This document shows positions 15,599-52,265 of a DNA stretch of 64,000 nt, one piece after another. Each line of letters begins with the position of its first letter. Within the stretch, counting starts at the first letter, position 1. The notes below the pieces were generated by a model. The model had not been told where the DNA came from and did no database searches. It was given only the letters and a program-made list of their open reading frames with translations. Source of the DNA: an uncultured Acidobacteriota bacterium (lineage in GTDB: Bacteria; Acidobacteriota; UBA6911); the NCBI GenBank assembly GCA_964474425.1, contig CAYYTC010000002.1, positions 39,859 through 103,858 of the forward strand, given 5' to 3'. Both the position numbers and the translations under genes were made by a program.

Positions 15599-15635
15599 AG
15601 GCTGCGTCTTCTCGTGGGCAATTCAGGTTTCTACA

Positions 15636-15858: not shown

Positions 15859-16050
15859 ATGTCAATGAAAAAAGCCGAGATGCCCTGTGCAATGCATGAT
15901 GAACACCTGTGTTATCTGGTAAATATGGGCTATGTTGAGAACAGTTTGAGCGACTATAAAGCGCTGGTCAAGGATGCAAAGTTCGTATGCAAGAAATGCG
16001 GACGAAGCGCCAATTCGGATGAAAACCTCTGCCGGCCCGTAAAGATCTAG
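15859..16050 (+). CDS. small Cys-rich protein (63 aa), unknown function
   Basis: A strong SD (ACGGAGGA) precedes the ATG. The sequence has C..H....C near the N-terminus and CKKCGR...C near the C-terminus, suggestive of metal binding. Confidence 0.5.
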   Translation: MSMKKAEMPCAMHDEHLCYLVNMGYVENSLSDYKALVKDAKFVCKKCGRSANSDENLCRPVKI

Positions 16051-16347
16051 CGGGCTGCGCCCTGCAGACAGGCACACACGAATTCGCATGAAATAACCTC
16101 AAAAATCATATTCCCTTAAACATGGAGGAGCCCCTAGGCTCCCGCCGTCAGGACGCACCCTAAGTTTGGGGCGTCATCGCCGGCGCGATGGCCGGCCGGC
16201 CCCGATTTCAAGCTCTACGTTCCGACGCGGAAAGGGATAAATTCGAGTTTTCGGAGCAATATGCAGCGAGGGTATACACTCTCGCTGGTTGCTCCCTTCG
16301 GGTTTTTCATCGTCTGCAATTGTGCGCGGCAGGATGCACCTTCCGGC

Positions 16348-17106
16348 TTATCCTACATACATGCGCCCGGGGTCGATGACTTCCCGGATCAGGCGGAGTT
16401 GTTCCGCCGACGGCGGTTCGGTTACGGAAACCTCCTTCGGGATAAGTGGGCGAAAGCCCATCGTTGAGAGGACGTCTTCGAGATTGTTCCCCGGATGGAT
16501 CGAAAGCAGCATCATCTGCTTTGTTTCCGGATGAAATCCGAATATTGCTTTATCGGTGATCACCCGGCTTGGACCGCCGACCAGGCCGGCCTTTGCCCGG
16601 CTTTCGCCGCCGTCGAGATACCCGGGACTGGTAACGAAGGAAATCGTTTCCCGGAACTTGCCTTCCTCCTGGCGCATGATCAGGATGGTCTTCTTCGCGC
16701 AGGAGGCGATATCGTTCGCGCCGCCGCTGCCGACCATATGACGGAATTTCCCCTTCGGGTCCCCCACGAGCGTCGTATTTAGATTGCCGAACCGGTCCGC
16801 TTCGAGCCCTCCCAGAAAACCGACATCGACCCTGCCGCGATGAAGAACGGTTCCCAGTATGTCGATAAAGCTGCTCAGCGCTTTAGCCCGGTACCATACC
16901 CTGGGATCGGCAAGCCCCACGCCGGTATGAATCGGTTCCGGGTCGATCACTCCCAGCTCAAACAGAACGGTCATGTCGGGAGCATGGCTTTTTTTCGCCA
17001 GGAAAGTCGCCACCATCGGAAGCCCGATCCCGACGGCGACAACCTGGCGGTCCTCCAGTTCGCGGGCGCCTGAAACTGCCATTAACTCGGATGGAGTATA
17101 GTCCAT
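16348..17106 (-). CDS. family I CoA-transferase subunit B (glutaconate CoA-transferase-like)
   Basis: The track ORF was trimmed to MDYTPSELMAV... (GAGGGAAAGAA before the ATG, 10 nt after the subunit A stop). Motif GGLEADRFGNLNTT...GSGGANDIA is present. Confidence 0.85.
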   Translation of the reverse strand: MDYTPSELMAVSGARELEDRQVVAVGIGLPMVATFLAKKSHAPDMTVLFELGVIDPEPIHTGVGLADPRVWYRAKALSSFIDILGTVLHRGRVDVGFLGGLEADRFGNLNTTLVGDPKGKFRHMVGSGGANDIASCAKKTILIMRQEEGKFRETISFVTSPGYLDGGESRAKAGLVGGPSRVITDKAIFGFHPETKQMMLLSIHPGNNLEDVLSTMGFRPLIPKEVSVTEPPSAEQLRLIREVIDPGRMYVG

Positions 17107-17116
17107 TTCTTTCCCT

Positions 17117-18016
17117 CTAATATCCCAGGATTGGATCGGCCCGGAGGCTCTTGAGACGGCGGAGGCCTCCGACAAGATCGAGATATTCCCAGTGGTCTGT
17201 CACGCCGTAGACATATTTGTCCAGGTATGCCTTCCACAGCTCGGGCTTTTGGAAAGCCTCGACGTATCTCCGGATCTCGTCGGCGTCGTAATCGTACTCA
17301 TGATATAGGGAGGTCGGATGGGCCCCGAAGGGCAGTTCCACGACATGAGAGACAAGGAGACTGGGAATCACGCACCGTTCGGGTTCCCTGCGAATGATGT
17401 CCGTCGGCACCACATGCTCGGCGATAACGATCGTGCGTGTGCTGGCTTTCACCTGTTCCGGAGAGTCCCATTTCGGCCCCGTGATCCAGGCGTTTCCCTC
17501 TTCGTCACAGATCTGGACTTGCAGCACGGCCACATCCGGAAGCAGGGGCTTCAACGCAAGCCACCGGTCGCCGGTAAAGGGATCATTGATAAAGGCCACA
17601 TCGGATCCCGTCCTCTCCTGAATCCGGCTCAGCAGGCCGGACCCGGACAGCGACCGTATGGGGATGAAGGGAAGCCCGAGCGAGCCGGCCAGATAGCGGA
17701 AGGCAATCGACAGGCTGCTGTATTCTTCGGCCTGGATCGAGCCGCTCTCAATGCCCGCGTTTATGCATCCAAGCCTTCCGAAACGGTCGAGCGCTCCTCC
17801 CCCGTAAATTACGCGCTCGACCGAACCGCCTCCCACCAGAAGATCCGTATCCATTGCTCCGAGGCACTGCGATATCGTCAGCTTTTTGATGCCCTGACGA
17901 ATGACCTCGCGCGCAAAGGCCATGGCGCATCGCGTGATTGCGAAGCCCGAAACGGCGACATGGGCCCCCGAGGGTATGGAGGCGACGGCCTCGCTCAAAC
18001 TGGATAATCTGTTCAT
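17117..18016 (-). CDS. family I CoA-transferase subunit A (glutaconate CoA-transferase-like)
   Basis: 299 aa starting SLSEAVASIPSGAHVAVSGF. It is adjacent to and co-directional with subunit B. Confidence 0.85.
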   Translation of the reverse strand: MNRLSSLSEAVASIPSGAHVAVSGFAITRCAMAFAREVIRQGIKKLTISQCLGAMDTDLLVGGGSVERVIYGGGALDRFGRLGCINAGIESGSIQAEEYSSLSIAFRYLAGSLGLPFIPIRSLSGSGLLSRIQERTGSDVAFINDPFTGDRWLALKPLLPDVAVLQVQICDEEGNAWITGPKWDSPEQVKASTRTIVIAEHVVPTDIIRREPERCVIPSLLVSHVVELPFGAHPTSLYHEYDYDADEIRRYVEAFQKPELWKAYLDKYVYGVTDHWEYLDLVGGLRRLKSLRADPILGY

Positions 18017-41017: not shown

Positions 41018-41812
41018 CTAACCCCCCGTATCCTTCCACCTTTCCAGGAGACCGAGGCGCCGGAATTCCTGTTTGCAGCGCCGGGTGAGGTCCGTCATCA
41101 TGGCCGGCCGGTACCGGTGATCGAACACATAACCTTTCAGCTTTAAAATCATGAAGGGCGACTCGGTATAGGCATCTTGCAGAACCACGGCTCTGCGGCG
41201 TCTGAGAAGAACATAGGGGCAGGTCACCAGCGCATCGTTGCCGATGCGGATTGCCAAATCAGGATCTGTGCTCGGCGGAAGATACAATTCTGTAGATACC
41301 AGGCACTCGGGAACTCCGGCGTTGTCATTAAAAGAAAAGGAGTCGAGGATGCGGGAGTTGGGGATAGTAACCAGCGTGTCGTCGGGTGTCATCATCTTCG
41401 TGCTGCGAAGCCCGATCCGCATGATCTCCCCATCGGCGTCGCCAATTTTCACACGGTCTCCTATCTGGTAGGGACGGTCGGCGACGATGACGAATCCCCC
41501 GATGAGGTTCTTGATCAGGTCCTGCGCTCCCAAACCGATCGCGATCGCCGCCGAGCCGATTGCGGCGAGGAAGGCATCCTGAGATGGGGCCAGAAGGCTG
41601 ATCGCAAACAGGATCGCCGCAAACCAGGATAGAATGCGCAGCGCAGGCTCTATCATCCGGACGATGAAACGCGCGCGCGGTCTGGCCTGCGCCAGTGAGG
41701 CGAACATGCGGCTCAAGTAATGAAGGATTACCCATACCGCGCCGAATACGGCCAGAACCAGCAGGAGGTTGCCCGGGGTCAAAGTGGTAAGTATTTGAGG
41801 TCCGTTTGCCAT
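41018..41812 (-). CDS. small MscS-family mechanosensitive channel
   Basis: 264 aa containing IGSAAIAIGLGAQDLIKNLIGGFVIVADRPYQIGDRVKIGD. The start is 9 nt after the stop of the NTPase gene (GAGAGGA SD). Confidence 0.85.
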   Translation of the reverse strand: MANGPQILTTLTPGNLLLVLAVFGAVWVILHYLSRMFASLAQARPRARFIVRMIEPALRILSWFAAILFAISLLAPSQDAFLAAIGSAAIAIGLGAQDLIKNLIGGFVIVADRPYQIGDRVKIGDADGEIMRIGLRSTKMMTPDDTLVTIPNSRILDSFSFNDNAGVPECLVSTELYLPPSTDPDLAIRIGNDALVTCPYVLLRRRRAVVLQDAYTESPFMILKLKGYVFDHRYRPAMMTDLTRRCKQEFRRLGLLERWKDTGG

Positions 41813-41821
41813 CGCATCCTC

Positions 41822-44335
41822 TCAAATCATATTCAGGCGTTGCAGGAGGTCGTTGACGAAAAGCTGCGCTTCCGGCCGGACGCGCAAGCCGGAGTGATCC
41901 GGGTCGGGCGCAACCAGATCCAGCGCAGCCAGGCGTTCGAGGCGGAGGCGGCTTGAAGAGGCCGGCTCCAACAGCACAAGGGACAATTCCTCCGCGGTCA
42001 ACGAGCCGTGTTGCTGGATCGATAGGAGTGAGAAATGATCCATCTGATTCATCTCGCGGCGCAGGGGACCGAAATCGGGCGCCAGAGGCTGTTTCATTTC
42101 GACTTTGCCGGCTTCCACGCGCTGGATGGAAGACTGCCACAGTTCAAACGCCGACCGGAATATGCCGCCGGACTGTTCGTATAGTGAATCAAAGAACATC
42201 TCCTCCGGATCGTCCTCGATCCCGATGAAGCTGCGTACGCGGTTGATGCGAGGATCGCCGGGAGGCGGGGGCGCAAAGCTCACCCGGAGGCCAGACAGGT
42301 TGTGGCGCTGCAGAATAGCCTTTACGAGGTCGCCTCGCTGGACACTCATGGCATTGATCCGGTGGGAAAAGGAAGTTCCGAATCCGACGGCCTGATCGAG
42401 CAACTGGAACGCGAAATCGTTCAGGGCGAGAATCCAAAAAGCCGCAGATGCCGTGGACTGGATCAGTTCCAGCAGGCGGCGAACGGCGTCGAAGCCGCCA
42501 ATGGTTTTGAGAAACGTCCGCTCGATTTCCTCAAGGATAACTATCCGGCGGGATCCTCCCAATCCTTCCACGAAAGTGTCCATCCGGTCTGGTTCCGTGA
42601 TGCGATCGGAAAACTGAGCCTGAACGACGGTTTCGCCGCCCAAAAGACTCGATATGGCGCAGTTCAGCAGGCTCGTTTTGCCGCTGCCTCTCGCCCCGAT
42701 CAGAAGGCAGGCTGCCGATTCCCCGGCGCGCCAGGCTTCAAACGCCTGCTGAAAGCCCAGCATTTCTTCGTCCCTGCCCACAAGAAATCGCGGATCCTGC
42801 ACGGGGCTGAGGCGGAAAAGCCGCCGATAGAGGGCCGGCAGCTGTTGTGCCGCCGCTTCAAGGTCCATTGCCTCTCGCAGCTGCATCCGGTGGACGACAG
42901 GCGGCAATGGCGGCCGCTTCGGCAGCCTCCAACCGAGTTTGATCTGTAAAGCTTCCACCCATCGGGAAGCGGCCGAACCGACACAGGCAGCAGCACGAGA
43001 GGCGACCCTGCGGATGAACAGCCATGAAAGCTCGTAGACGCGGCGGCCCTGCCGCCTGGTCACAAGAGCCAAAAATCCGGCACGGCCCAGTTCGAGCACT
43101 CCGCTGGCTTCCCGTCCGGCAGCAAGCAAGGACGCTCTTGCGGAATCTTCCAGACCGGCGGCTTCTGCCGGCGTGGATCGGTCGCATTGTTCGAGCAGGG
43201 TCTTCGCGTTGTTGAGAGCTTCACCCAGCAGGTTTTCCCCTGTATCCCCCGCTCCCTGCGCGTAGAGAATAACCTCGTTGGCGCGCTCCATATCCCGGGC
43301 GATTGCCAGGTTCTGCTCGATCGCATTCCCAAGACCGGCAGCCAGCGCCGGCCGGGTCGAGGCGCGCAATGCGTTCCAATAAGCGGAACGCGGTTCGATG
43401 GTGCGCCAGCGATTCCAGAATGATGGGAGGGCACTGCGCGGCTCGGTGACCTCGACCTGTTCGGGCAGAAAGGTCTGGAGCGTTTTGTCAATTCGAGCCT
43501 GCCAAACATCCAGCCTCTCTTCAAGGCTGACAATTCGGGCATCGGTATCGGGAGGATTATAGGCGCCTCCCGCCCAGGCGCCCAGATACTCAGCCTGCCA
43601 GCGGAGAGCCCGGTGCAGATCTTCCCGCTCCAACCGCACGTCATTCAGGGTGCCGGCAGTTATGTTGAGGGTCTCCAGAGTCATCCGTACGAGTTGCGCC
43701 TCCAGTTCAAGGCTGTCTGCGACCGCCCGCTGGCGTCGCCACCAGAAAGCCAAATGGCACTGATGTATTTCTTCCTGTCTTCGAGTAGGTTTGACTTTAG
43801 GAGCTTTGGCGGCATTTTTCTCGAACCAGGACCGATACCGGGAAATCACCTGCTCCGCGGCTCGCCGGTCGCGATCCAGCGCAGTCACCCAGTCGGCCCA
43901 TTCGCCCCTCCGCGAAAGGATCCTGTTCCTGTACTGAAACGGCTGTTGCCTGAGATTTCTATACAGGATCCATGGATCACACAGGCGGAGGCTGGCACGA
44001 GCCAAAAGCAGGTGCATCTGGCCGTCGATGCCCGCCCGCCGGAGTGCCATCGGAACACCCGCGGCGCTGTCAAATTCTTCCTGAGAAGCCAAAGCGCGTT
44101 GTGCAGGACGGCGGCGCCTGTACTGGGCATAAAAATCCAGGTAGAGGCCCCGGCCGGCTTCGGAAAGGCTCTGAATTTCGTCGCGGAAAGATCCGCCCGT
44201 CTGCAGTCTGTCAAGGTGCTGCAGAAATGCTTGACGCAGTGCTTCCAGCAGCGCTGCCAAATCAGCCCATGCAGCAGACTGCTCCTCCAAAAACCACCGG
44301 CTTCGGTCGGCGGCTGGCTCCGTGACTTCCGGCAT
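41822..44335 (-). CDS. large P-loop NTPase (about 837 aa) with a long helical N-terminal region and a C-terminal winged-helix-like tail; function unknown
   Basis: The track ORF extends to a TTG at 44458. ATG 44335 has GGGAG 9 nt upstream. Features are FLVGRDEEM, Walker A LIGARGSGKTSLLN, a Walker B-like RRIVILEEIE, and a C-terminal LSIQQHGSLTAEELSLVL...RLERLAALDLV. Confidence 0.8.
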   Translation of the reverse strand: MPEVTEPAADRSRWFLEEQSAAWADLAALLEALRQAFLQHLDRLQTGGSFRDEIQSLSEAGRGLYLDFYAQYRRRRPAQRALASQEEFDSAAGVPMALRRAGIDGQMHLLLARASLRLCDPWILYRNLRQQPFQYRNRILSRRGEWADWVTALDRDRRAAEQVISRYRSWFEKNAAKAPKVKPTRRQEEIHQCHLAFWWRRQRAVADSLELEAQLVRMTLETLNITAGTLNDVRLEREDLHRALRWQAEYLGAWAGGAYNPPDTDARIVSLEERLDVWQARIDKTLQTFLPEQVEVTEPRSALPSFWNRWRTIEPRSAYWNALRASTRPALAAGLGNAIEQNLAIARDMERANEVILYAQGAGDTGENLLGEALNNAKTLLEQCDRSTPAEAAGLEDSARASLLAAGREASGVLELGRAGFLALVTRRQGRRVYELSWLFIRRVASRAAACVGSAASRWVEALQIKLGWRLPKRPPLPPVVHRMQLREAMDLEAAAQQLPALYRRLFRLSPVQDPRFLVGRDEEMLGFQQAFEAWRAGESAACLLIGARGSGKTSLLNCAISSLLGGETVVQAQFSDRITEPDRMDTFVEGLGGSRRIVILEEIERTFLKTIGGFDAVRRLLELIQSTASAAFWILALNDFAFQLLDQAVGFGTSFSHRINAMSVQRGDLVKAILQRHNLSGLRVSFAPPPPGDPRINRVRSFIGIEDDPEEMFFDSLYEQSGGIFRSAFELWQSSIQRVEAGKVEMKQPLAPDFGPLRREMNQMDHFSLLSIQQHGSLTAEELSLVLLEPASSSRLRLERLAALDLVAPDPDHSGLRVRPEAQLFVNDLLQRLNMI

Positions 44336-45057
44336 AGAGGTGGCTCCCAAATCCTGGATAGTCTGTAAAAATTGGCGATTTGTTACAAAATCCAATTTAT
44401 CCGACGCATCGGCCCCGGTGAGAGGCTCTGATGTGCTGGCCCGCGGATTGTTCCGCAATCCTGTGTTCGCCGGCCACGCGAATTATATACTGGAACCGGC
44501 AGGTAAGTCATTGCCGGGAGGCATCGGTCCGCTTCGGGTGCCCAAACGGAATAACTCTTCAATGCTTTGAGACTCTACCGCACCTAAGGCTTTCTCCGGC
44601 TTTCAAAGCCGGATTTGTGCGCCAGGGGCGGCCCGCAAGATTGTGCCCGCAGTTTTGCCTGAATCCCCATGATTTTGCATTGACAATGTTTGGCCGCTAG
44701 ATTATCAAACTAATACCCGGCGCCATGCGCCCGGATGGCTTTACTCACTGTTCATTTCTGGATGGGCTGGGCTTCTGTTGCGAATCATTGATGTTTTTTC
44801 CAAATTGCAATCATCCGGCATTCAATCAGGCAGGCAGTGTGTGGCAGGAGCCCGTTCAATCGGGAGGGTCGCGGTTTGATACATTTTGCTGCCGTTTCAA
44901 TCCATGAACCGCGGATCGAGAGCCCCTGGCGGACAAAAGCTCATGGCTCATTCGGCGGCCGGCCGCGGCGCGGGATGCGTCCGGCGGAGTTGTCCTATCA
45001 ATCCCGGCTTTCTGCCGCCTCCGCCGGCAGAAAGCTCGATCGAGCAAGGTTTGGTCC

Positions 45058-46344
45058 ATGTCCATAGCCATCGTCGGAATGCTGGATGAGAGAGAAGAAG
45101 CCCTCAGAATCATCAGGGACTGCGTCGTGCGACGCGGCCACAGGCCCCTATTGATGGATATCAGCGTTGGAACCGGCGCCATTGTTTCTTCGCTCCAGGC
45201 GGATGTCCGCTGCGAGGAGTTGCTTGAATTGGGCAGAAAAAGCGCAGAACCGGATTCAGGGGGCAGCAGAACCCTGACATCCATTATGGCCGAGGGGCTG
45301 AAGGTAAAGGTCCTGGATCTTCAGCAATCGGGGGAACTGCAAGGCATCATTGCCATCACCGGGATGACCGGAGCGCTCATATCGCTGACAGCCATGAAAG
45401 CGTTGCCTTTCGGCGTCCCCAAGCTTCTCGTATCCGGCGCCACCGCCCAGCCTGCCCACGCAAGCCAGTTCGCCGATTATTTCGCGGTGCGCGATATAAC
45501 CGTGATGAACACCGTGGTCGACACCGTGGGGATGAATGCGCTGGTTCGGACGCTCGCCGTCAACGGAGCCAACGCCATTTCCGGCATGGTGGAGGGAGCC
45601 GAGGGATTCCGGTCTGAGGGCAGGCCTTCCATCGCCATAACCGAATTCGGTTTTTGCGAGAAGGGGGCGCATCACATCAGGGCGATTCTGGAGAAGGAAT
45701 ACGACCTCGTCTCATTTCATGCCACCGGCCTGGGCGACAAAGCCGTCATGGATTTGTTGCCCCAGGGGATCTTTCTGGCATTTGTCGATCTTGTCCCGGG
45801 GGCGTTCAGCGAAAACCTTCTGGGAGGCAACAGGGGCTTCGTGGGACCGAACCGTCTGGATGCGGCTTCCGCTCTGCCGTTGCCCTACATTTTTTGTCCG
45901 GGAGGTTTTGACATCATAAGCTGCGGGCCCATGGAAAGAAGAGACAGAAACGACCCGCTCTGGACATCGCGCAGGCTTGCGGAGAGGAAACTCTACGTGC
46001 AGGACCCTCCCAGGGTCCAGGCCAGGATGAATCCCGAGGAAACGGAATATGTAGCCGCGGCCGCCGCAGAAAGACTGAATCAGTATAGCTTCAAGGCAAG
46101 GGTCAAAGCCGTAATCCCGAGGAAAGGTTTTTCCTGCATCAGTGTTGAAGGGGGACCGCTTCACGATCCCGCCGCAGACAGGGTTTTTGCGGCCGCCTTC
46201 AAAGAGCGTTTGGATCCCGAAATAGAGATCATCGAGGTGGATTCGGACATAAACAGCCCCGCTTTCGCAGAGGCCGTGGCGGGGGCGTTGGCACGCGCCA
46301 TGACAGGAGAAACCGGAAAGGGAGGTTCATCGCAGCATGGATAA
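45058..46344 (+). CDS. UPF0261 / Tm-1-like ATP-binding-domain protein (paralogue 1)
   Basis: 428 aa. The N-terminus MSIAIVGMLDEREEALRIIRDCVVRRGHRPLLMDISVG and the overall length fit the UPF0261 family. Confidence 0.75.
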   Translation: MSIAIVGMLDEREEALRIIRDCVVRRGHRPLLMDISVGTGAIVSSLQADVRCEELLELGRKSAEPDSGGSRTLTSIMAEGLKVKVLDLQQSGELQGIIAITGMTGALISLTAMKALPFGVPKLLVSGATAQPAHASQFADYFAVRDITVMNTVVDTVGMNALVRTLAVNGANAISGMVEGAEGFRSEGRPSIAITEFGFCEKGAHHIRAILEKEYDLVSFHATGLGDKAVMDLLPQGIFLAFVDLVPGAFSENLLGGNRGFVGPNRLDAASALPLPYIFCPGGFDIISCGPMERRDRNDPLWTSRRLAERKLYVQDPPRVQARMNPEETEYVAAAAAERLNQYSFKARVKAVIPRKGFSCISVEGGPLHDPAADRVFAAAFKERLDPEIEIIEVDSDINSPAFAEAVAGALARAMTGETGKGGSSQHG

Positions 46345-48073
46345 GATCGAATTCGTCGATCAAACCATCCGGGACGCTCAGCAGAGCCTCTGGGGCCTGA
46401 TGATGCGGACCGACCACATAGTCCCGATTGCGGAAACCATGGGCAAAGTGGGATACCGGGCCGTCGCGACCGTCGGCTCCCAGGCATTCACCGTGCAGGT
46501 GCGCAAACATCAGGAAGATCCCTGGGAGAGGATCCGAATTCTCTCTCGGCTTATGCCCCAGACCTGCCTGCGCGGGTCCTACCAGACGGCCAGCCTTTCT
46601 GCATTCGACCTCAGCACTCCCCGAAGCGTCATAGTACTCTGGATACAGCGGTCCGTGGCCAACGGCATCCGAAGCTTCTGGATCTGCGACTACCAGGAGA
46701 ATATGGAGAGGTTCCGCTATTTCGCCCACATAGCCCGGGCCGAGGGAGCCGAGATCGTCACGGCGCTGATGCACACGCAGAGCCCGGTCCATACCGATGA
46801 GCATTGGGCGCAAAAAGCCCGGCTGATAGCGGACTCGAAGGACTGCATCGACCGCATCATGATCGAGGACGCCTCCGGTATCCTGACGCCGGAGCGAACG
46901 CGCAAGCTGGTCTCCACGGTTCAGAAGAATTGCGGCGGCATTCCGCTCGAGTTCCACGGTCACTGCAATTCCGGGCTGGCGCCTCTCTGCTACCTGGAAG
47001 CTATTGAATCAGGCGTCACGACCGTCCATACCGCGGTTGGGCCTCTTGCCAACGGCACCTCCATGCCCTCGACGGAGAACATATTGAGAAACGCGCGCCG
47101 CCTGGGCTATGAATCCGATCTGAACGAGGATGCTCTTTCCACCGTATCTGCACATTTCAGGGCGATTGCCCAAAAGGAAGGATTACCCGTCGGCGTGCCC
47201 GTGGAATATGACCTCTTCCATTTTGAGCACCAGGTTCCCGGGGGGATGATGACAAACCTGACGCGGCAGCTCCGGGAGGTGGGAATGGAGCACCGTTTGA
47301 GTGAAATCCTCCCCGAGGTCGCAAAAGTGCGCAAGGAATTCGGATATCCCGTGATGGCGACCCCTTATTCCCAGATTGTCGGATCGCAGGCTGTCGAGAA
47401 CATTGTCTCGGGCGAACGATATAAAAAGATCACAGACGAGACGATTAAATATGCCCTGGGCTACTATGGCCGGCCCGTCGTTCCACTGGATCCGAATCTG
47501 ATGGACAAAATCCTGAGCTTGCCCAGGACAAGGGAATTTCAAAACTGGGAGCCGGAAGGATTCCACAAGTCTATTGAACAGCTGCGCGAGGAAATCGGGC
47601 CGGAGCTTTCCGACGACGACCTGTTGCTCCGGGTTCTGATTCCCGGCAAACCGCTTCAGCGCGGCGGGCCAGAGGCTCGGACCCATGCGCCGGCCGCTCC
47701 CGCTCAAGCGTCGGGCAGGCCATCCATGGGGATCCGGAGCGTTGCGGGAAGATTCAGCGTGGAGGTGGACGGAGAAATATTCAACGTGAAAATCTCGTCC
47801 ATACCGGATGAATCCGCAAAAACCGTCGAAGCCGGGCAGTCCCGGACCCCGAAATTGCCCGAAGGATCGGTGGTTTGCGACATAGCGGGGCTGGTACTCT
47901 CGATCGATGTGAAAGTGGGGGACCGCGTGCTTGAGGGAGATCCGGTCGCGGTGATCGAGGCGATGAAAATGAGGAGGCAGGTTCGCTCGCCGCGCGAAGG
48001 GCTGGTCCGGAATATTCTGGCAAGAGAAGGCGAGATCGTCGACATCCACGACGTTCTGATGGTGGTGTCCTGA
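46337..48073 (+). CDS. TIM-barrel (5S / PycB / OadA-type) carboxyltransferase fused to a C-terminal biotinyl domain; divergent active site
   Basis: 578 aa. FVDQTIRDAQQSLWG (canonical RDAHQS), IEDASGILTP (canonical KDMAG), EFHGHCNSG (HxH), and C-terminal VIEAMKMRRQV. It overlaps the upstream gene by 8 nt. Confidence 0.85.
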   Translation: MDKIEFVDQTIRDAQQSLWGLMMRTDHIVPIAETMGKVGYRAVATVGSQAFTVQVRKHQEDPWERIRILSRLMPQTCLRGSYQTASLSAFDLSTPRSVIVLWIQRSVANGIRSFWICDYQENMERFRYFAHIARAEGAEIVTALMHTQSPVHTDEHWAQKARLIADSKDCIDRIMIEDASGILTPERTRKLVSTVQKNCGGIPLEFHGHCNSGLAPLCYLEAIESGVTTVHTAVGPLANGTSMPSTENILRNARRLGYESDLNEDALSTVSAHFRAIAQKEGLPVGVPVEYDLFHFEHQVPGGMMTNLTRQLREVGMEHRLSEILPEVAKVRKEFGYPVMATPYSQIVGSQAVENIVSGERYKKITDETIKYALGYYGRPVVPLDPNLMDKILSLPRTREFQNWEPEGFHKSIEQLREEIGPELSDDDLLLRVLIPGKPLQRGGPEARTHAPAAPAQASGRPSMGIRSVAGRFSVEVDGEIFNVKISSIPDESAKTVEAGQSRTPKLPEGSVVCDIAGLVLSIDVKVGDRVLEGDPVAVIEAMKMRRQVRSPREGLVRNILAREGEIVDIHDVLMVVS

Positions 48074-48074
48074 A

Positions 48075-49550
48075 ATGATCCGAAAGATTCTCATAGCCAA
48101 TCGCGGTGAAATCGCGGTCCGTGTCATGAGGGCATGCCGCGAAATGGGAATCGCATCAGTCGCGGTGTATTCGGAAGCGGATAGGGACGCGCTGTTTGTC
48201 AGATACGCGGACGAATCTCACGGGATCGGCCCGGCGCCGGCTTCCCGGAGCTATCTCAATATCCCCAAAATAATTCAGACCGCCAGAGAATGCAGGGCCG
48301 ATGCGATCCATCCCGGATACGGATTCCTGGCGGAAAATCCGGAATTCGCCCTCGCATGCGAAAAGGAGAGGATCCGATTTATCGGGCCATCCAGCGGCGT
48401 GCTCAGACTCCTGGGCGACAAGCTAGCTGCAAGGCGCGAGATGATCAAGGCAGGCATCCCTGTTGTGCCGGGAACGGTTGAGCGCGTGGAGAGCTTCGAG
48501 CATGCCCGCAGCGCCGCCGGAGCCATCGGATATCCCGTGATGATCAAGCCGTCGGGAGGCGGCGGGGGGATCGGGATGGCGGTGGTCGGGAACGAAAGCG
48601 AGCTGGCGAACGCGCTGGAATCCGCACGCGCGATCGCCACAACGACTTTCGGACTCGGAGACGTGTACATCGAAAAGTACCTGCTGCATCCGCGCCACAT
48701 TGAATTCCAGATACTGGGAGATTCCGGAGGCAATGTCATCCATCTGGGCGAACGGGAATGCTCCATTCAGCGAAGGCATCAAAAGCTGATCGAGGAATCG
48801 CCGTCGACGGCGCTAACTCCCGAGCTGCGTGAAGTCATGGGCGCGACCGCGGTGAATGCCGCCCGGTGTGTCGGGTATGAAGGTGCGGGCACCGTGGAGT
48901 TTCTCTTTGCGGATGGAAGCTTCCATTTCCTTGAGGTAAACGCCAGGGTGCAAGTGGAGCACCCGGTTACGGAGATGGTGACGGGGATTGATATCGTGAA
49001 GGAACAGATTCGGATTGCCGCAGGAATGCCGCTTCGTTTCAGGCAGCAGGACGTGAGGATCCGGGGGACTGCCATCGAGTGCCGCATCAATGCGGAGGAT
49101 CCGCTGAACGGCTTTGTTCCCGCGCCGGGAAAGATACACACCTACCACGCTCCCGGCGGCACGGGCATCCGGGTGGACAGCGGAGTCTGCAGCTCCAGCT
49201 CAATACCGCCCTTCTATGATCCGCTGATATCAAAGCTCATCGCCTGGGGCATGGACAGGGATGAGGCGATCGGAAGGATGCAACGGGCCCTTTACGAATA
49301 TGTGATCCTCGGCGTCGCGAGCAACATCCCGTTCCACCAGGCGGTGATGGAGAATCCGCGGTTCCGGGCAGGAGAACTGGGGACCGGCTTCATAGACCGC
49401 GAAGTTTCACTGAGCGCTGAAATAAGACGGATGGCGGAGACTGGAAGGCGGCTCCAGGATGGATTTCCCTGCCAGAATGAAAACAGGAAAAAGGTCGTCG
49501 CGATGGCGGTTGCCGCCGCTCTGTCCGGCGCGCTCGAGCCGACGCAATGA
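48075..49550 (+). CDS. biotin carboxylase (AccC/PycA type)
   Basis: 491 aa. MIRKILIANRGEIAVRVMRACREMGI, an ATP-grasp region, and EVNARVQVEHPVTE. It starts 1 nt after the upstream stop. Confidence 0.95.
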   Translation: MIRKILIANRGEIAVRVMRACREMGIASVAVYSEADRDALFVRYADESHGIGPAPASRSYLNIPKIIQTARECRADAIHPGYGFLAENPEFALACEKERIRFIGPSSGVLRLLGDKLAARREMIKAGIPVVPGTVERVESFEHARSAAGAIGYPVMIKPSGGGGGIGMAVVGNESELANALESARAIATTTFGLGDVYIEKYLLHPRHIEFQILGDSGGNVIHLGERECSIQRRHQKLIEESPSTALTPELREVMGATAVNAARCVGYEGAGTVEFLFADGSFHFLEVNARVQVEHPVTEMVTGIDIVKEQIRIAAGMPLRFRQQDVRIRGTAIECRINAEDPLNGFVPAPGKIHTYHAPGGTGIRVDSGVCSSSSIPPFYDPLISKLIAWGMDRDEAIGRMQRALYEYVILGVASNIPFHQAVMENPRFRAGELGTGFIDREVSLSAEIRRMAETGRRLQDGFPCQNENRKKVVAMAVAAALSGALEPTQ

Positions 49551-49637
49551 AGCCGCAGTCCTGACCGGGCCGCCCTGGAATCGATGCCGCGGAATCGGAC
49601 CGGGTTGTATGGCGCCCGGAATCATCGGAGGTTTTCT

Positions 49638-50870
49638 ATGAGTAACAAGCCGAAAGTCATGATGATTGTTACGATGGACACCAAAGAGGCTGAGGCCCGC
49701 TTTACCCGAAGGTGTCTCGAAGACGCCGGCCTCGAGGTCTACCACCTCGACGCCAGCATACTCCGGACGATTGATTGCGGGGCTTCCATCACCCCGGATC
49801 AGATCGCCGCGGCGGTCGGCAAAACGATGCCCGAGGTCCGGGCTCTCAACCACGAAGCCAAATGCCTGGCCATTATGATTGAGGGTGCCATCTTATGTGC
49901 CCAGAATCTCCACCGGCGGGTCGGGCTGAGCGGAATCATCGCTGCGGGAGGTTCGCTGGGGACTGTTCTCGGCTCGGCGGTTATGCGGACATTCCCGTTC
50001 GGCCTTCCCAAGATGATGATCTCGACCATGGCGTCCGGAAATACACTGCCCTACGTAGGCACCCGCGATATCGTCATGGTTCCCTCAATATGCGACGTTG
50101 CCGGTTTAAACACCGTGACACGATGCGTGTTTCAAAATGCGTCCCGCGCCCTCGCCGGAATGGCTCATGGCTACAAACCTCTTCCGGCTTCAGACAAACC
50201 CCTGATCGCGATTTCAACCCTCAGCACCACCGAAAAATGCTGCACCGCGATTCGAGAAGCCCTCGAGCAGCGAGGGTTTGAAGTGATGGTCTTCCACACA
50301 CAGGGAACCGGCGGCGGCGCCATGGATGCAACCGTCCGCGAGCAGGACGTCTCCATCGCCGTGAACCTGTCGCTGATTGAAGTCAGCGATTTTCTGGTCC
50401 AGGGCCTGTTCAGCGGAGGCCCCGACAGGTGCAAGGCATCCCTTGAAAAGGGCATCCCGACGATCTTTGTGCCGGGCAACATCGACTTCATGGTTGCGGG
50501 CCCGATTGAAGACGCGAAGGTCCGCTTTCCCGGCAGGCGCTATCACATTCACAACGAAGTGCTGACGGCGGTTCGAGCGCAGGCCGGGGAGTTCAAGCGT
50601 GTGGCCGATCATTTGGCGGGGCTGGTTCGGGAAGCGAAGGGGCCCGTGGCGTTTCTTGTTCCGCTGCTCGGATTTTCCAATCATGACAGTCCGCAAGGTT
50701 ATTTGCACGATCCGTCCCTTCCGCCTGTTTTCGCCGAATATATAAAGCAGGCAATGCCCGAAAGTGTGCCGATGGCGTTTCTCCCCCATCACATCAACGA
50801 CAAGCCTTTTGCCGAGGCCATTATTCAGCAGGTCCTCGCTTTTCAGAAAAACACTGGAGCAGCGGGCTGA
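49638..50870 (+). CDS. UPF0261 / Tm-1-like ATP-binding-domain protein (paralogue 2)
   Basis: Trimmed to ATG 49638 (GGAGG 7 nt upstream). KVMMIVTMDTKEAEARFTRRCLEDAGLEVYHLDAS matches the family N-terminus (DTKg.E). Confidence 0.8.
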   Translation: MSNKPKVMMIVTMDTKEAEARFTRRCLEDAGLEVYHLDASILRTIDCGASITPDQIAAAVGKTMPEVRALNHEAKCLAIMIEGAILCAQNLHRRVGLSGIIAAGGSLGTVLGSAVMRTFPFGLPKMMISTMASGNTLPYVGTRDIVMVPSICDVAGLNTVTRCVFQNASRALAGMAHGYKPLPASDKPLIAISTLSTTEKCCTAIREALEQRGFEVMVFHTQGTGGGAMDATVREQDVSIAVNLSLIEVSDFLVQGLFSGGPDRCKASLEKGIPTIFVPGNIDFMVAGPIEDAKVRFPGRRYHIHNEVLTAVRAQAGEFKRVADHLAGLVREAKGPVAFLVPLLGFSNHDSPQGYLHDPSLPPVFAEYIKQAMPESVPMAFLPHHINDKPFAEAIIQQVLAFQKNTGAAG

Positions 50871-51170: not shown

Positions 51171-52265
51171 ATGGGAAAGATAAAGATTGCATGGGCTCCT
51201 GCAATCCTGCTTTTTGCTGTTGCGGCCTTGGGCCAGATCAACCAGCCGAACCATCTGCCATACAAGGACCTTATTTTCGCTCAGCTCGCCGCGGGCGGAA
51301 TCTGGGAAACACAAATAACGGTTACCAACCGCGGAACTCAGCCATGGGAGGGAGATTTTAATTTCTATACCGGCGAGGGATCGGCGTGGAATCCCTATGT
51401 GAACGGCGCCCAATTGATCGGAGGCAGCCTCGCGGTAACGCTTAATCCCAAAAGAACTGCAACCTATAAAATTACCGTACCCGGCTCCGCGATTGAGCCG
51501 GGATTCGTGATGGCCATTGCCGACAACACCGATCTGGACAATTTCATTGAAGGCAACTTGACATGGTTCGTCAAAGACGCAGACAAGGTCACGGACAGTA
51601 TCGGAGTGCTGCCTTCAAATCCCATCATGGCAGCGACTGTTCCATTTGAGAATTTCAACTCGGTCAGCGTGGCATTCGCCAACACCGACGCGCAGGGCAG
51701 AACCGCCCATTTGAAATTGAAGCTGTATTCGGAATCGGGCAGCCGTGTGGGCGACATCTTTGAGTGGACCCTCGACGCCCGGGAACACCTTCCCCGCTAT
51801 CTTCGGGAACTATTTACAGGGGTGACGCTCGGCCGGGGCCGTGTCGACATTTCATCCGATGTCCCCATCAGCGGCGTGGCCCTGATCCAGACAGAATCCC
51901 AGTTCGCCTCTCTTCCCTTCAATTCCACTGTCCGAACCTATCAAATCGATGCCTATGGTTCGGAGGTGAACTTCGCGCGGATGACTCTGTGGACCGAGGG
52001 CCTTTTCATAAGCGGCTACGTTGCCATGGAGCGCGAAAGCGTCCTGAGCCTGTTTGCCATAACCGGAAGCATCAAAGACGGGAAAGCGCTGCTGCATTTC
52101 GACGGCGACAACGAGACGACAAGCGACTATGGCGTCTACGGTTTCATCATTCCCAACGGCACCCTCGATCCCGATCAGACATCGTTCAGCGGCACGTATT
52201 CCGTGGCCATCCCATCCGAATATGAATTCGAAAACGGGTGGTTCGATGCCACTCTGGTTCCCTGA
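51171..52265 (+). CDS. secreted hypothetical protein (364 aa)
   Basis: GAGGAGG SD and a signal peptide MGKIKIAWAPAILLFAVAALGQ. It is beta-rich and contains an FAQLAAGGIWETQITVTN motif. Confidence 0.7.
   Translation: MGKIKIAWAPAILLFAVAALGQINQPNHLPYKDLIFAQLAAGGIWETQITVTNRGTQPWEGDFNFYTGEGSAWNPYVNGAQLIGGSLAVTLNPKRTATYKITVPGSAIEPGFVMAIADNTDLDNFIEGNLTWFVKDADKVTDSIGVLPSNPIMAATVPFENFNSVSVAFANTDAQGRTAHLKLKLYSESGSRVGDIFEWTLDAREHLPRYLRELFTGVTLGRGRVDISSDVPISGVALIQTESQFASLPFNSTVRTYQIDAYGSEVNFARMTLWTEGLFISGYVAMERESVLSLFAITGSIKDGKALLHFDGDNETTSDYGVYGFIIPNGTLDPDQTSFSGTYSVAIPSEYEFENGWFDATLVP

What the first reader, a model, noticed from the sequence alone, without database searches (positions are those of the whole stretch)
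45058..50870. Four-gene operon: a divergent biotin-dependent carboxylase bracketed by two UPF0261 (Tm-1-like ATP-binding) paralogues
The gene order is UPF0261, then TIM-barrel carboxyltransferase fused to BCCP, then biotin carboxylase, then UPF0261. The junctions are an 8-nt overlap, a 1-nt gap and an 87-nt gap, so this is one transcription unit. The middle pair resembles two-subunit pyruvate/2-oxoglutarate carboxylases, which as far as I know are not associated with UPF0261 genes. Bacterial UPF0261 proteins are functionally uncharacterised ATP-binding proteins. To my recollection they usually sit next to a PEP-hydrolase-like TIM-barrel gene, which is absent here. Two extra ATP-binding subunits around a carboxylase with an altered active site (see the next finding) suggest an undescribed ATP-dependent activation-plus-carboxylation system acting on a non-standard substrate. 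This would be conceptually similar to the multi-subunit carboxylases of anaerobic ketone or aromatic metabolism.
Basis: inference. Interest (0 to 1): 0.7.

Follow-up and report, generated by a model that had tools for sequence, protein, structure and literature searches.

The report
Phenolic-ketone kinase plus biotin carboxylase operon
This conserved four-gene operon from uncultured, mostly Acidobacteria-like bacteria probably phosphorylates a phenolic methyl ketone such as 4-hydroxyacetophenone and then carboxylates it with a biotin enzyme, making it a new variant of a pathway described in 2022-2025, with an extra kinase-like protein whose relatives also sit beside phenol carboxylase genes.

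Summary
Four co-directional genes encode UPF0261 (g1), a TIM-barrel carboxyltransferase fused to BCCP (g2), biotin carboxylase (g3) and a second UPF0261 (g4). Junctions are -8, +1 and +87 nt. The order recurs in every related locus with enough sequence.

This is activation plus carboxylation, but the logic is already described.
- g4 is 52% identical to MarK, the first UPF0261 shown to be a kinase (acetovanillone kinase, ATP to ADP). It keeps MarK's Lys16 and its phenol-pocket histidines.
- g2 is the sister group of AcvE-type carboxyltransferases, which act on phospho-hydroxyphenylethanones. It is not a true PycB.
- In a Desulfobacteraceae relative, a two-subunit PpsAB/HpeHI-like dikinase replaces both UPF0261 genes. 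This mirrors the known MarK versus AcvAB/HpeHI swap.

New features:
- BCCP is fused to the carboxyltransferase.
- The carbamylated metal-ligand Lys is invariably Glu.
- No HAD phosphatase is linked.
- 3-oxoacid CoA-transferase genes are adjacent in some relatives.

g1 belongs to a distinct, strongly conserved UPF0261 subfamily. Its sister clade lies between phenylphosphate carboxylase-beta (UbiD) and UbiX genes. Its role is unresolved.

Verdict: a real feature and a new variant of a known kind. Interest 0.6.

The parts
44459..45057 (+). 600-nt upstream intergenic region, the presumed promoter/regulatory region of the operon
   Evidence: Lies between the divergent 878-aa AAA_16 gene and g1. No sigma-70-like + strand site was found. 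No -24/-12 sigma-54 site was found here or upstream of g1 in 16 related loci.
45058..46344 (+). g1: divergent UPF0261 (428 aa) of a distinct carboxylase-associated subfamily. It has D10-E-R12 where MarK has D14-T-K16, and TGMTG where MarK has GGSxG. It keeps the phenol-binding Gly and His221 (= MarK H219).
   Evidence: Pfam PF06792 + PF23189. 27% identity to MarK and 28% to g4. The subfamily signature is invariant in 80 sequences. Orthologues at 59-95% identity.
46337..48073 (+). g2: carboxyltransferase (HMGL-like TIM barrel + PYC_OADA) fused to BCCP, 578 aa. Key residues: D13, E177 (in place of the carbamylated Lys), H207/H209, catalytic-type T342, biotinyl K544 (EAMKM).
   Evidence: Pfam and NCBIfam. 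PDB alignment to 5ks8_C, 2nx9 and 1rqb. Motif table. 39% identity, E 3e-121, to the AcvE-type carboxyltransferase of L082. Sister to that clade in the tree. Residue coordinates.
48075..49550 (+). g3: biotin carboxylase subunit (491 aa)
   Evidence: Biotin_carb_N, CPSase_L_D2 and Biotin_carb_C. NF006406 at 754 bits, above its cut-off of 739. 47% identity to the AcvD-type biotin carboxylase of L082.
49638..50870 (+). g4: MarK-type UPF0261 aryl kinase (410 aa) with native K16, H220, H305 and H349
   Evidence: phmmer against PDB 9MPY: E 3.8e-132 over the full length. 52% identity. Key residues conserved across the clade. Clade is sister to MarK and the plasmid MarK homologues. GGAGG ribosome-binding site before the ATG at 49638.

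Best explanation
The operon encodes a phospho-activation plus carboxylation module for phenolic aryl methyl ketones (hydroxyphenylethanones such as 4-hydroxyacetophenone or acetovanillone). It is homologous in logic and in parts to MarK-AcvCDE(F), HpeHI-HpeCBA-HpeD and XccABC.

Step 1 (inferred from close homology): g4, a MarK-type UPF0261 kinase, transfers the gamma-phosphate of ATP to the phenolic OH and releases ADP.

Step 2 (inferred from homology): g3 carboxylates the biotin on the C-terminal BCCP domain of g2, using ATP and bicarbonate. The TIM-barrel carboxyltransferase domain of g2 then moves the carboxyl group to the acetyl methyl of the aryl phosphate, giving a phospho-aroylacetate. 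The g2 metal site would be Asp13, Glu177, His207 and His209, with Thr342 as proton shuttle.

Step 3 (inferred from context only): the phosphate is removed. The beta-keto acid is converted to its CoA ester, by a 3-oxoacid CoA-transferase in related loci, and then cleaved thiolytically. These genes are not in this window.

g1 belongs to a separate, strongly constrained UPF0261 subfamily that accompanies carboxylases acting on aryl phosphates. My preferred reading, at about 1 in 3, is that it handles the phosphoryl group at the carboxylase stage. It would do the job of the missing HAD phosphatase, by hydrolysis or by transfer back to ADP. Nearly as likely, it is a second kinase with a different pocket, or the partner protomer of g4.
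For: g4 as kinase:
- Full-length match to the MarK crystal structure sequence 9MPY (E 3.8e-132) at 52% identity.
- D14, T/S15 and K16 conserved. Substrate-pocket residues H219, F283, H304 and H348 conserved; G195 to S/G and I285 to V.
- MarK is an ADP-forming acetovanillone kinase, the first gene of an operon with acvCDEF (PMC12624787).

g2 as aryl-ketone carboxyltransferase:
- In plasmid marK-acvCDEF clusters, the carboxyltransferase is HMGL-like + PYC_OADA.
- It is 39% identical to g2 (E 3e-121), closer than any PycB (30-36%).
- The two families are sisters in the NJ tree.
- g2 lacks features of pyruvate-handling enzymes. The carbamyl-Lys position is Glu in 15/15 family members, against Lys in all 64 canonical sequences. 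RGQN and FDALND are replaced. The HxH and RD motifs and the catalytic Thr are kept.

Kinase swap:
- The Desulfobacteraceae orthologue pair (66% and 71% identity) is preceded by PPDK_N + PEP-utilizers genes and has no UPF0261.

Beta-keto acid product:
- CoA_trans A/B genes abut the cluster in L002, L154 and L159.

Conservation:
- 24/24 loci with room downstream, and 11 complete four-gene sets.

g1:
- Invariant subfamily motifs.
- Its sister clade lies between phenylphosphate carboxylase-beta and UbiX genes, often with PpsAB-like genes nearby.
- No HAD gene in any of these loci.
- HpeCBA accepts only the phosphorylated ketone, and HpeD dephosphorylates the product (PMC9618137).
Against: - There is no biochemical evidence for any of the four proteins. 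Substrate identity rests on pocket residues shared with MarK, which is itself promiscuous.
- The window contains no thiolase, aryl-CoA or ring-reduction genes near the operon. No HAD phosphatase is present, so the pathway is incomplete as encoded here.
- The Lys-to-Glu change and other substitutions distinguish g2 from AcvE-type carboxyltransferases too, which keep Lys. The substrate may therefore differ from that of Acv/Hpe.
- I could not include authentic XccA/HpeA/AcvE or CfiB sequences. The AcvE-type reference is a plasmid homologue identified by synteny.
- The tree is a simple neighbour-joining tree without support values.
- g1's role is not resolved. L003 and L005 lack both g1 and a HAD gene, so a missing HAD gene in a cluster is weak evidence.
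Confidence: 0.65

Rival explanations
1. g2+g3 form an ordinary two-subunit pyruvate carboxylase (PycAB) or a related oxaloacetate or 2-oxoglutarate enzyme, as public annotation says. The UPF0261 genes are merely neighbours with an unrelated function.
For: - NCBIfam NF006761 'pyruvate carboxylase subunit B' scores 412 bits against a cut-off of 402.
- The best PDB hit is the beta subunit of a two-subunit pyruvate carboxylase, 5ks8_C.
- Homologues are named 'pyruvate carboxylase subunit B' in NCBI MAGs.
- The architecture, carboxyltransferase-BCCP plus a separate biotin carboxylase, matches PycAB and CfiAB.
Against: - NF006761 is a 'domain'-type model. Every equivalog model is far below its cut-off.
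- The carbamyl-Lys is Glu, and RGQN and FDALND are replaced, in all family members.
- Identity to PycB is only 30-36%, against 39-41% to AcvE-type carboxyltransferases. The tree puts the family with the latter.
- Linkage to aryl-kinase genes of two unrelated types is conserved across phyla.
Confidence: 0.05
2. The carboxylase acts on a non-aromatic carbonyl compound, such as acetone or another small ketone giving acetoacetate or a homologue. The UPF0261 proteins would make an enol-phosphate or phosphorylate a different hydroxyl, closer to the first reader's idea.
For: - Adjacent 3-oxoacid CoA-transferase genes in L002, L154 and L159 would also fit acetoacetate.
- A g1-type gene sits next to hydantoinase A/B (acetone/acetophenone-carboxylase family) genes in L150.
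- The g2 active site differs from AcvE-type carboxyltransferases as well.
Against: - g4 keeps the aromatic-stacking His304 and the phenol- and ketone-binding His219 and His348 of MarK.
- The sister clade of g1 is embedded in phenylphosphate-carboxylase clusters with a phenol-pathway porin and a PaaK-like ligase.
- The alternative kinase in L005 is of the aryl-phosphate synthase type.
Confidence: 0.1
3. g1 and g4 form one obligate heteromeric kinase. MarK is a dimer with its ATP and substrate sites 25 A apart. One protomer would supply the nucleotide site and the other the aryl site. There would be no separate role for g1 after carboxylation.
For: - MarK dimerises through its N-domains, and phosphoryl transfer in trans has been proposed (PMC12624787).
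- All 11 complete Acidobacteria-type clusters carry both paralogues.
- In L005 both are replaced together by a two-subunit dikinase.
- Some PpcB clusters also carry a pair of unlike UPF0261 genes.
Against: - L154 has the carboxylase with only a g1-type gene.
- L147, L116 and L160 have PpsAB + PpcB with only the g1-type gene.
- g4 keeps every residue that MarK, a homodimer, needs on its own.
Confidence: 0.2

Closest known systems
MarK-AcvCDEF operon (Novosphingobium aromaticivorans Saro_1862-1858; plasmid copies in Pseudomonas putida YC-AE1, Sphingobium yanoikuyae YC-JY1 and Sphingomonas bisphenolicum)
   Same: A UPF0261 aryl kinase sits in one operon with a biotin-dependent carboxylase whose carboxyltransferase is HMGL-like + PYC_OADA. 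g4 is 52-55% identical to MarK and its plasmid homologues. g3 is 47% identical to the biotin carboxylase, and g2 is 39% identical to the carboxyltransferase.
   Different: In this window:
- BCCP is fused to the carboxyltransferase instead of being a separate 158-aa protein.
- The carbamyl-Lys is Glu.
- There is no HAD phosphatase (AcvF).
- There is no acetoacetate-CoA-ligase-type gene.
- A second, divergent UPF0261 (g1) is present.
- The hosts are uncultured Acidobacteria-like bacteria rather than aerobic Proteobacteria.
HpeHI-HpeCBA-HpeD (Rhodococcus rhodochrous GD02), AcvAB-AcvCDE-AcvF (Sphingobium sp. SYK-6) and XccABC (Aromatoleum aromaticum EbN1)
   Same: The order of reactions is the same: phosphorylate the phenol, then carboxylate the acetyl group with a biotin enzyme that accepts only the phosphorylated ketone (PMC9618137). 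The Desulfobacteraceae relative L005 uses this dikinase type with the g2/g3 orthologues.
   Different: The kinase here is the ADP-forming UPF0261 type, not an AMP-forming two-subunit dikinase. The phosphatase and CoA ligase are absent. I had no authentic Hpe, Acv or Xcc sequences to compare directly.
Two-subunit pyruvate carboxylase PycAB, oxaloacetate decarboxylase OadA and transcarboxylase 5S
   Same: The domain architecture of g2 and g3 matches. The HxH and Asp metal ligands, the catalytic Thr motif TPxSQ and the EAMKM biotinylation site are all present.
   Different: Lys to Glu at the carbamylated ligand. The RGQN and FDALND motifs are lost. Identity is only 24-36%. The family sits in a separate clade.
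Phenylphosphate synthase / phenylphosphate carboxylase (PpsABC / PpcABCD) of Thauera aromatica, and the PpcB-only clusters of strict anaerobes
   Same: Both follow phosphorylate-then-carboxylate logic on a phenolic compound. The sister clade of g1 (about 60% identity) is encoded between PpcB-type UbiD and UbiX genes, with PpsAB-like genes nearby.
   Different: The carboxylase in the window is biotin-dependent, not prFMN/UbiD-dependent. It would carboxylate a side-chain methyl group, not the ring.
Tm-1 and bacterial UPF0261 + PEP-hydrolase-like gene pairs
   Same: Both share the two-domain UPF0261 fold family.
   Different: There is no PEP-hydrolase-like partner here. That partner is present in Rhizobium. 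Tm-1 acts by binding a viral replicase, not as a metabolic kinase.

Membership tests
Two-subunit pyruvate carboxylase (PycA/PycB) | Separate biotin carboxylase subunit, plus a carboxyltransferase (HMGL-like + PYC_OADA) with C-terminal BCCP | tested here: met
   Pfam architecture of g2 and g3.
Two-subunit pyruvate carboxylase (PycA/PycB) | Metal site of Asp, carbamylated Lys, His-x-His | tested here: not met
   The Lys position is Glu177 in g2 and in 15/15 family members. All 64 canonical sequences keep Lys. Asp13 and H207/H209 are kept.
Two-subunit pyruvate carboxylase (PycA/PycB) | Pyruvate-binding RGQN Arg/Gln region. The role of this region is from my knowledge of R. etli PC R621. | tested here: not met
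   The aligned segment is LRGSYQTAS, with Gln where the Arg aligns. An LRG lies 4 residues upstream, so the register is somewhat uncertain.
Two-subunit pyruvate carboxylase (PycA/PycB) | Falls within the PycB/OadA clade and passes the equivalog models | tested here: not met
   Only the 'domain' model NF006761 passes (412 versus 402 bits). Equivalog models are far below their cut-offs. The NJ tree puts the family with AcvE-type carboxyltransferases.
Hydroxyphenylethanone kinase-carboxylase system (MarK/AcvAB/HpeHI + AcvCDE/HpeCBA/XccABC + AcvF/HpeD) | Aryl kinase encoded with the carboxylase | tested here: met
   g4 is 52% identical to MarK with the key residues conserved. The dikinase type is found in L005.
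Hydroxyphenylethanone kinase-carboxylase system (MarK/AcvAB/HpeHI + AcvCDE/HpeCBA/XccABC + AcvF/HpeD) | Biotin carboxylase, BCCP and an AcvE-type (HMGL-like) carboxyltransferase | tested here: met
   All three functions are present. The carboxyltransferase is 39% identical to the AcvE-type one and belongs to its sister clade. BCCP is fused rather than separate, and Lys is replaced by Glu, which AcvE-type carboxyltransferases do not show.
Hydroxyphenylethanone kinase-carboxylase system (MarK/AcvAB/HpeHI + AcvCDE/HpeCBA/XccABC + AcvF/HpeD) | HAD-family phosphatase (AcvF/HpeD) in the cluster | tested here: not met
   tblastn with the L082 HAD protein finds nothing in the 64-kb window or in any related locus.
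Hydroxyphenylethanone kinase-carboxylase system (MarK/AcvAB/HpeHI + AcvCDE/HpeCBA/XccABC + AcvF/HpeD) | ATP- and bicarbonate-dependent carboxylation of the phosphorylated ketone only | not testable with these tools
   Needs enzyme assays.
MarK-type UPF0261 aryl kinase | UPF0261 N + C domains, D14-T15-K16, and phenol site G195/H219/H304 | tested here: met
   This row is for g4: D-T-K, S195 (the contact is through the backbone N), H219, H304 and H348.
MarK-type UPF0261 aryl kinase | The same features, tested in g1 | tested here: not met
   g1 has D-E-R, TGMTG in place of GGSxG, H304 to Q and H348 to I/L. It keeps G195 and H219. It belongs to the UPF0261 family but is not MarK-type.
UPF0261 + PEP-hydrolase-like TIM-barrel pair (Tm-1-like) | Adjacent or fused PEP-hydrolase family gene | tested here: not met
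   None among the genes scanned between 30.5 and 63 kb. One is present after the Rhizobium UPF0261.

The most novel reading that the evidence does not exclude
The g1-type UPF0261 subfamily would be an aryl-phosphate phosphotransferase that works with carboxylases in energy-limited anaerobes. After or during carboxylation it would take the phosphoryl group off the aryl phosphate. It might return that group to ADP, in place of the HAD phosphatases AcvF/HpeD and PpcD. This would make it the missing partner of the 'PpcB-only' phenylphosphate carboxylases of strict anaerobes. Their activity has never been reconstituted, and their ATP cost is unexplained (PMC6114531). The window's operon would then cost one ATP per carboxylation instead of two or three.
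Probability: 0.2. Interest if true: 0.85.

Novelty: new variant of a known kind. Interest (0 to 1): 0.6.

Why it matters
**Annotation.** Thousands of metagenome and MAG proteins now labelled 'pyruvate carboxylase subunit B', 'acetyl-CoA carboxylase biotin carboxylase' or 'Tm-1-like ATP-binding protein' would be re-read as one pathway for phenolic ketones. These compounds are lignin- and plant-derived, and include 4-hydroxyacetophenone, acetovanillone and bisphenol breakdown products.

**Ecology.** The phosphorylate-then-carboxylate strategy has so far been shown only in a few aerobes and one denitrifier. This would extend it to Acidobacteria-like and Desulfobacterota lineages.

**Enzymology.**
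- A two-polypeptide version of the carboxylase, with BCCP fused to the carboxyltransferase, may be simpler to engineer for lignin valorisation than the three-subunit enzymes.
- The natural replacement of a carbamylated Lys by Glu is a ready-made experiment on the metal site of the DRE-TIM carboxyltransferases.

**Open question.** The g1-type subfamily is linked to biotin-type and UbiD-type carboxylases and, in one locus, to a hydantoinase-type one. This makes the question of how strict anaerobes pay for activating phenolic compounds directly testable.

Tried and rejected
- **Sigma-54 promoter.** I searched for a -24/-12 promoter upstream of g1 in the window and in 16 related loci, because sigma-54 activators lie near the cluster in L001, L002 and L005. 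None was found.
- **Downstream pathway genes.** I searched the window and related loci by tblastn for a HAD phosphatase, an acetoacetate-CoA ligase, Amidohydro_2 and BKACE homologues of the plasmid acv clusters. None was found.
- **Source contig.** I tried to recover the window's own contig with precomputed annotation. Only a 5.4-kb Logan contig was returned. One look-up failed for lack of a slot.
- **Papers not held.** Woehlbrand 2008 (Xcc) and Schleinitz 2009 (Geobacter phenol cluster) are not in the library. The Tm-1/ATP-gamma-S structure paper was not found, so I could not map Tm-1's nucleotide contacts onto g1.
- **'Altered' His in RDAHQS.** I rejected this as diagnostic, because RDAQQS also occurs in many canonical enzymes.
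- **Apparent missing carboxyltransferase in L131.** This was a tblastn reporting artefact. blastx shows it is present at 78% identity.
- **Structure prediction.** I did not run it. Both UPF0261 domains and the carboxyltransferase fold are already unambiguous from sequence. The tool returns no coordinates, so site geometry could not be measured.
- **PpcC/PpcD-like genes.** I looked among the recurrent small ORFs of the PpcB clusters. None was found, apart from one weak HAD-like ORF in L116.

Full report
**1. What is in the sequence**

Four + strand ORFs occupy 45058-50870.
- g1 (45058-46344, 428 aa) hits both UPF0261 domains. The hit is weak: NF002674 scores 266 bits against a cut-off of 335.
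- g2 (46337-48073, 578 aa) is HMGL-like TIM barrel + PYC_OADA + biotinyl domain.
- g3 (48075-49550, 491 aa) is a complete biotin carboxylase (NF006406, 754 bits against 739).
- g4 is a strong UPF0261 match (476 bits against 335).

The g4 start that fits the ribosome-binding site GGAGG and the family alignments is 49638. No terminator-like site on the + strand falls in a junction. A 600-nt intergenic region precedes g1.

The surrounding genes are unrelated: FtsH, a sigma-54/GAF activator 9 kb away, an S15 peptidase, two MscS channels, an 878-aa AAA_16 protein, a secreted protein of unknown family, EF-G, and a GGDEF/EAL regulator. The operon is therefore a self-contained module.

**2. The arrangement is conserved**

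g2 has thousands of homologues. The best 120 are 69-100% identical and come mostly from JGI/ENA metagenomes and Acidobacteria MAGs.

The same four genes in the same order occur in:
- a 657-kb ENA contig (L001);
- an Acidobacteria MAG (L002) and a MAG labelled Actinomycetota (L004);
- a closed 6.9-Mb contig (L167);
- metagenome contigs L093, L094, L109, L123, L129 and L131.

A metagenome scan with g1 recovered 80 g1 relatives. Every one of the 24 in the window's clade with at least 200 nt downstream has g2 next to it. Many entries in the g1, g2 and g4 homologue lists also share the same longest-contig length.

**3. g4 is a MarK-type aryl kinase**

The UPF0261 family is no longer uncharacterised. 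Hall et al. 2025 (PMC12624787) showed the following for Saro_1862 (MarK) of Novosphingobium aromaticivorans:
- It phosphorylates the phenolic OH of acetovanillone, 4-hydroxyacetophenone and related compounds.
- It forms ADP.
- It is the first gene of an operon with the biotin carboxylase acvCDE and the phosphatase acvF.

g4 matches the MarK crystal-structure sequence (9MPY) over its full length, with E 3.8e-132 and 52% identity. Across the g4 clade:
- The ATP-site triad D14-T/S15-K16 is conserved. Lys16 is the residue whose restoration raised MarK activity about 1600-fold.
- The acetovanillone-pocket residues H219, F283, H304 and H348 are conserved.
- G195 is S or G (the contact is through the backbone), and I285 is V.

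In a neighbour-joining tree, the g4 clade is sister to MarK and its plasmid homologues.

**4. g2/g3 belong with the aryl-ketone carboxylases, not with pyruvate carboxylase**

A tblastn search with g4 against plasmids found marK-like genes (53-55% identity) on plasmids of Pseudomonas putida YC-AE1, Sphingobium yanoikuyae YC-JY1 and Sphingomonas bisphenolicum. Each is followed by BCCP, biotin carboxylase, a 492-aa protein and a HAD hydrolase, which is acvCDEF. The 492-aa protein is HMGL-like + PYC_OADA. It is 39% identical to g2 over 494 residues (E 3e-121). The nearest PycB proteins are 30-36% identical and full-length pyruvate carboxylases 24-26%. The NJ tree places the g2 family and the AcvE-type carboxyltransferases as sisters, apart from PycB/OadA and PC.

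A motif table of 15 g2-family, 2 AcvE-type and 64 canonical sequences shows:
- **Kept in g2:** the RD, HxH and TPxSQ (catalytic Thr) motifs, and the EAMKM biotinylation site.
- **Changed in g2:** the carbamylated metal-ligand Lys is Glu (IMIEDASG) in every member. RGQN is replaced by GSYQTAS, and FDALND by CDYQEN.
- **AcvE-type carboxyltransferases:** they also lack RGQN but keep the Lys.
- **Not diagnostic:** the His-to-Gln change in RDAHQS, which also occurs in many canonical enzymes.

Loss of the region that holds the pyruvate carboxylate in PC fits a substrate without an alpha-carboxylate. The role of that region is from my knowledge of the R. etli enzyme. Public annotation as 'pyruvate carboxylase subunit B' rests on a domain-type model that g2 passes by 10 bits. 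All equivalog models fail by hundreds of bits.

**5. An independent kinase swap supports the functional link**

Two Desulfobacterota genomes carry g2/g3 orthologues (65-66% and 71-72% identity, with the same Glu) but no UPF0261 gene. In the Desulfobacteraceae MAG (L005), the two genes immediately upstream on the same strand are a PPDK_N protein (342 aa) and a PEP-utilizers protein (560 aa). This is the architecture of phenylphosphate synthase and of the acetovanillone dikinases AcvAB/HpeHI (PMC9618137; bioRxiv 10.1101/2022.04.28.489975). The same replacement, MarK versus AcvAB/HpeHI, is documented for the acv/hpe pathway (PMC12624787). Two unrelated aryl-kinase types linked to one carboxylase family is the strongest contextual argument that the carboxylase takes a phosphorylated phenolic substrate. 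HpeCBA does exactly this: it carboxylates only the phospho-ketone.

**6. Downstream chemistry**

Subunits A and B of a family-I (3-oxoacid) CoA-transferase lie directly beside the cluster in L002, L154 and L159. This is what a beta-keto-acid product needs. It replaces the acetoacetate-CoA-ligase-type gene of the aerobic clusters. Fer4 + AFOR-family genes follow the cluster in L001 and L109, and an AFOR gene lies near it in L003. No HAD phosphatase occurs in the window or in any related locus. The window itself has only a distant CoA_trans pair 27 kb away.

**7. g1 is a different kind of UPF0261**

g1 is 27% identical to MarK and 28% to g4.

Its subfamily carries motifs that are invariant in 80 sequences spanning 59-95% identity:
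- GMLDEREEAL, with D-E-R where MarK has D-T-K;
- A-I/V-T/A-GMTG where MarK has GGSxG;
- TEFGFC, SFHATGxGD, LGGNR and CPGGFDxISCGP;
- two insertions;
- GFSSLS where MarK has GFSSHD.

It keeps the two residues that hydrogen-bond the phenolic oxygen (G195, H219). It replaces the stacking and ketone-binding histidines (H304 to Q, H348 to L/I). Such strict conservation argues for a functional, chemically different site rather than a decaying one.

About 45 of the 80 metagenome relatives form a sister clade (about 60% identity) in a different context:
- Core: a LysR gene, then UbiD, the g1-like gene and UbiX.
- Often upstream: PEP-utilizers + PPDK_N genes, sometimes with a second UPF0261 only about 30% identical to g4.
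- Also nearby: a Phenol_MetA_deg porin, a PaaK-like ligase and a CTP-dependent riboflavin kinase.

The UbiD proteins pass the equivalog model for phenylphosphate carboxylase subunit beta (509-657 bits against 469). No PpcC- or PpcD-like gene was found among the recurrent small ORFs. In one locus of a third small clade, the g1-like gene is followed by hydantoinase A and B genes, the acetone/acetophenone-carboxylase family. The g1 type is therefore linked to biotin-type and UbiD-type carboxylases and, in one locus, to a hydantoinase-type one. The only organism name recovered for the UbiD-linked clade is a Deltaproteobacteria MAG.

**8. Most likely mechanism**

*Shown by sequence:* the parts list, the homologies and the conserved linkage.

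*Inferred from homology:* g4 phosphorylates a phenolic methyl ketone (ATP to ADP). g3 carboxylates the biotin on g2's BCCP domain. g2's TIM barrel (Asp13, Glu177, His207, His209 and Thr342) transfers CO2 to the acetyl methyl of the aryl phosphate.

*Inferred from context only:* dephosphorylation, CoA transfer and thiolysis follow.

For g1 I see three readings of similar weight.
- **(a) It deals with the phosphoryl group at the carboxylase stage, replacing the HAD phosphatase and possibly returning the phosphate to ADP.** Four observations favour this: it co-occurs with a separate primary kinase (g4 or PpsAB) in both contexts; it sits next to the carboxylase genes; HAD/PpcD genes are absent; and its nucleotide-site motifs are altered.
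- **(b) It is a second kinase with a different pocket.** Kinase is the only activity known in the family, and L154 has the carboxylase with only a g1-type gene.
- **(c) It is the partner protomer of g4.** MarK is a dimer whose ATP and substrate sites are 25 A apart. Both UPF0261 genes are replaced together by a two-subunit dikinase in L005.

I prefer (a) at roughly one in three. L003 and L005 lack both g1 and a HAD gene, which weakens the argument from absence.

**9. Comparison with known systems and novelty**

In function and ancestry, the operon is a member of the hydroxyphenylethanone kinase-carboxylase kind (Hpe/Acv/Xcc with MarK). It is not a true PycAB, because the defining Lys, the RGQN motif and clade membership were tested and not met.

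It departs from the described systems in several ways:
- a fused carboxyltransferase-BCCP;
- Lys replaced by Glu;
- no HAD phosphatase;
- CoA-transferase instead of ligase in relatives;
- a second UPF0261 of a new subfamily;
- its hosts, which are uncultured Acidobacteria-like and Desulfobacterota lineages.

I found no paper linking Tm-1-like/UPF0261 proteins to carboxylases other than the MarK paper. I therefore rate it a new variant of a known kind.

The side observation on PpcB-UPF0261-UbiX clusters may be the more consequential lead. Xie and Mueller (PMC6114531) note three things about strict anaerobes: they have only ppc-beta in the cluster, their carboxylase activity could not be shown, and the energy cost is unexplained.

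**10. Limits**
- There is no biochemistry.
- The trees are simple NJ trees without support values.
- An anaerobic lifestyle for the host is inferred from relatives and neighbouring genes, not shown.
- The hydantoinase link rests on one locus.

Noticed in passing
L104-L164 (about 45 loci), e.g. L122:1218-4672 and L157:2924-11914: A sister clade of g1 (about 60% identity) is encoded between a phenylphosphate carboxylase-beta-type UbiD gene (TIGR02724, above its cut-off) and UbiX. PpsAB-like dikinase genes are often nearby, sometimes with a second UPF0261. A LysR gene, a phenol-pathway porin, a PaaK-like ligase and a CTP-riboflavin kinase also recur. No PpcC or PpcD was recognised.
   Followed up: partly
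L150:205-5717: A g1-type UPF0261 gene is followed directly by Hydantoinase_A and Hydantoinase_B genes, the acetone/acetophenone-carboxylase family. This would be a third carboxylase type linked to the subfamily, but it is seen in a single locus.
   Followed up: partly
L107, L115, L127, L153 (e.g. L115:3350-4009): An HD-domain (metal-dependent phosphohydrolase) gene lies next to g1-type UPF0261 genes in several loci.
   Followed up: no
L005:5338-15657; L003:2058-19507: The Desulfobacterota g2/g3 orthologues have no UPF0261.
- L005 has PPDK_N + PEP-utilizers genes directly upstream, plus isochorismatase, DUF2284, glyoxalase and a sensor kinase.
- L003 has Amidohydro_2, two AMP-binding ligases, AFOR, a CO_deh_flav_C protein and DUF169.
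   Followed up: partly
L082 (NZ_CP047312 202851-222050), L083 (NZ_CP047221 1-15126), H4 (NZ_AP018819): marK-acvCDEF clusters sit on plasmid segments of three strains: P. putida YC-AE1, Sphingobium yanoikuyae YC-JY1 and Sphingomonas bisphenolicum. I recall these strains as bisphenol-A degraders. The L082 and L083 segments are transposase-flanked; the H4 region was not inspected. The carboxyltransferase there is annotated 'biotin carboxyl carrier protein'.
   Followed up: partly
L100:2170-2997: An AbiEii-like nucleotidyltransferase ORF is inserted between g1 and g2 in one metagenome contig.
   Followed up: no
window 41018-44458 (- strand): An 878-aa protein with only a weak AAA_16 hit and an adjacent MscS-like channel gene lie divergently upstream of the operon. 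This neighbourhood is shared only with the 92%-identical relative L085.
   Followed up: no
window 51171-52265 (+): A 364-aa ORF with a signal-peptide-like N-terminus and no Pfam or NCBIfam hit lies 300 nt downstream of g4, preceded by a GGAGG site. It is not conserved next to the operon elsewhere.
   Followed up: no
window 13036-18016: A family-III CoA-transferase (13036-14226) and a CoA_trans A/B pair (16348-18016, - strand) lie about 27 kb from the operon. The A/B pair is only 26% identical to the CoA-transferases adjacent to the cluster in L002.
   Followed up: partly
L001:9730-12498: The biotin carboxylase and second UPF0261 genes are split by frameshifts in this 657-kb contig, probably long-read assembly errors.
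   Followed up: no
g1 subfamily alignment (window 45058-46344 and relatives): Three cysteines (FGFC, CPGGFD/PCGFD, SCGP) are conserved in the g1-type subfamily and absent from MarK-type proteins.
   Followed up: no
L001:12752-15530; L109:14558-17340: A Fer4_11 protein and an AFOR-family (tungsten/molybdenum aldehyde oxidoreductase or BamB-like) gene follow the four-gene cluster in two loci.
   Followed up: no
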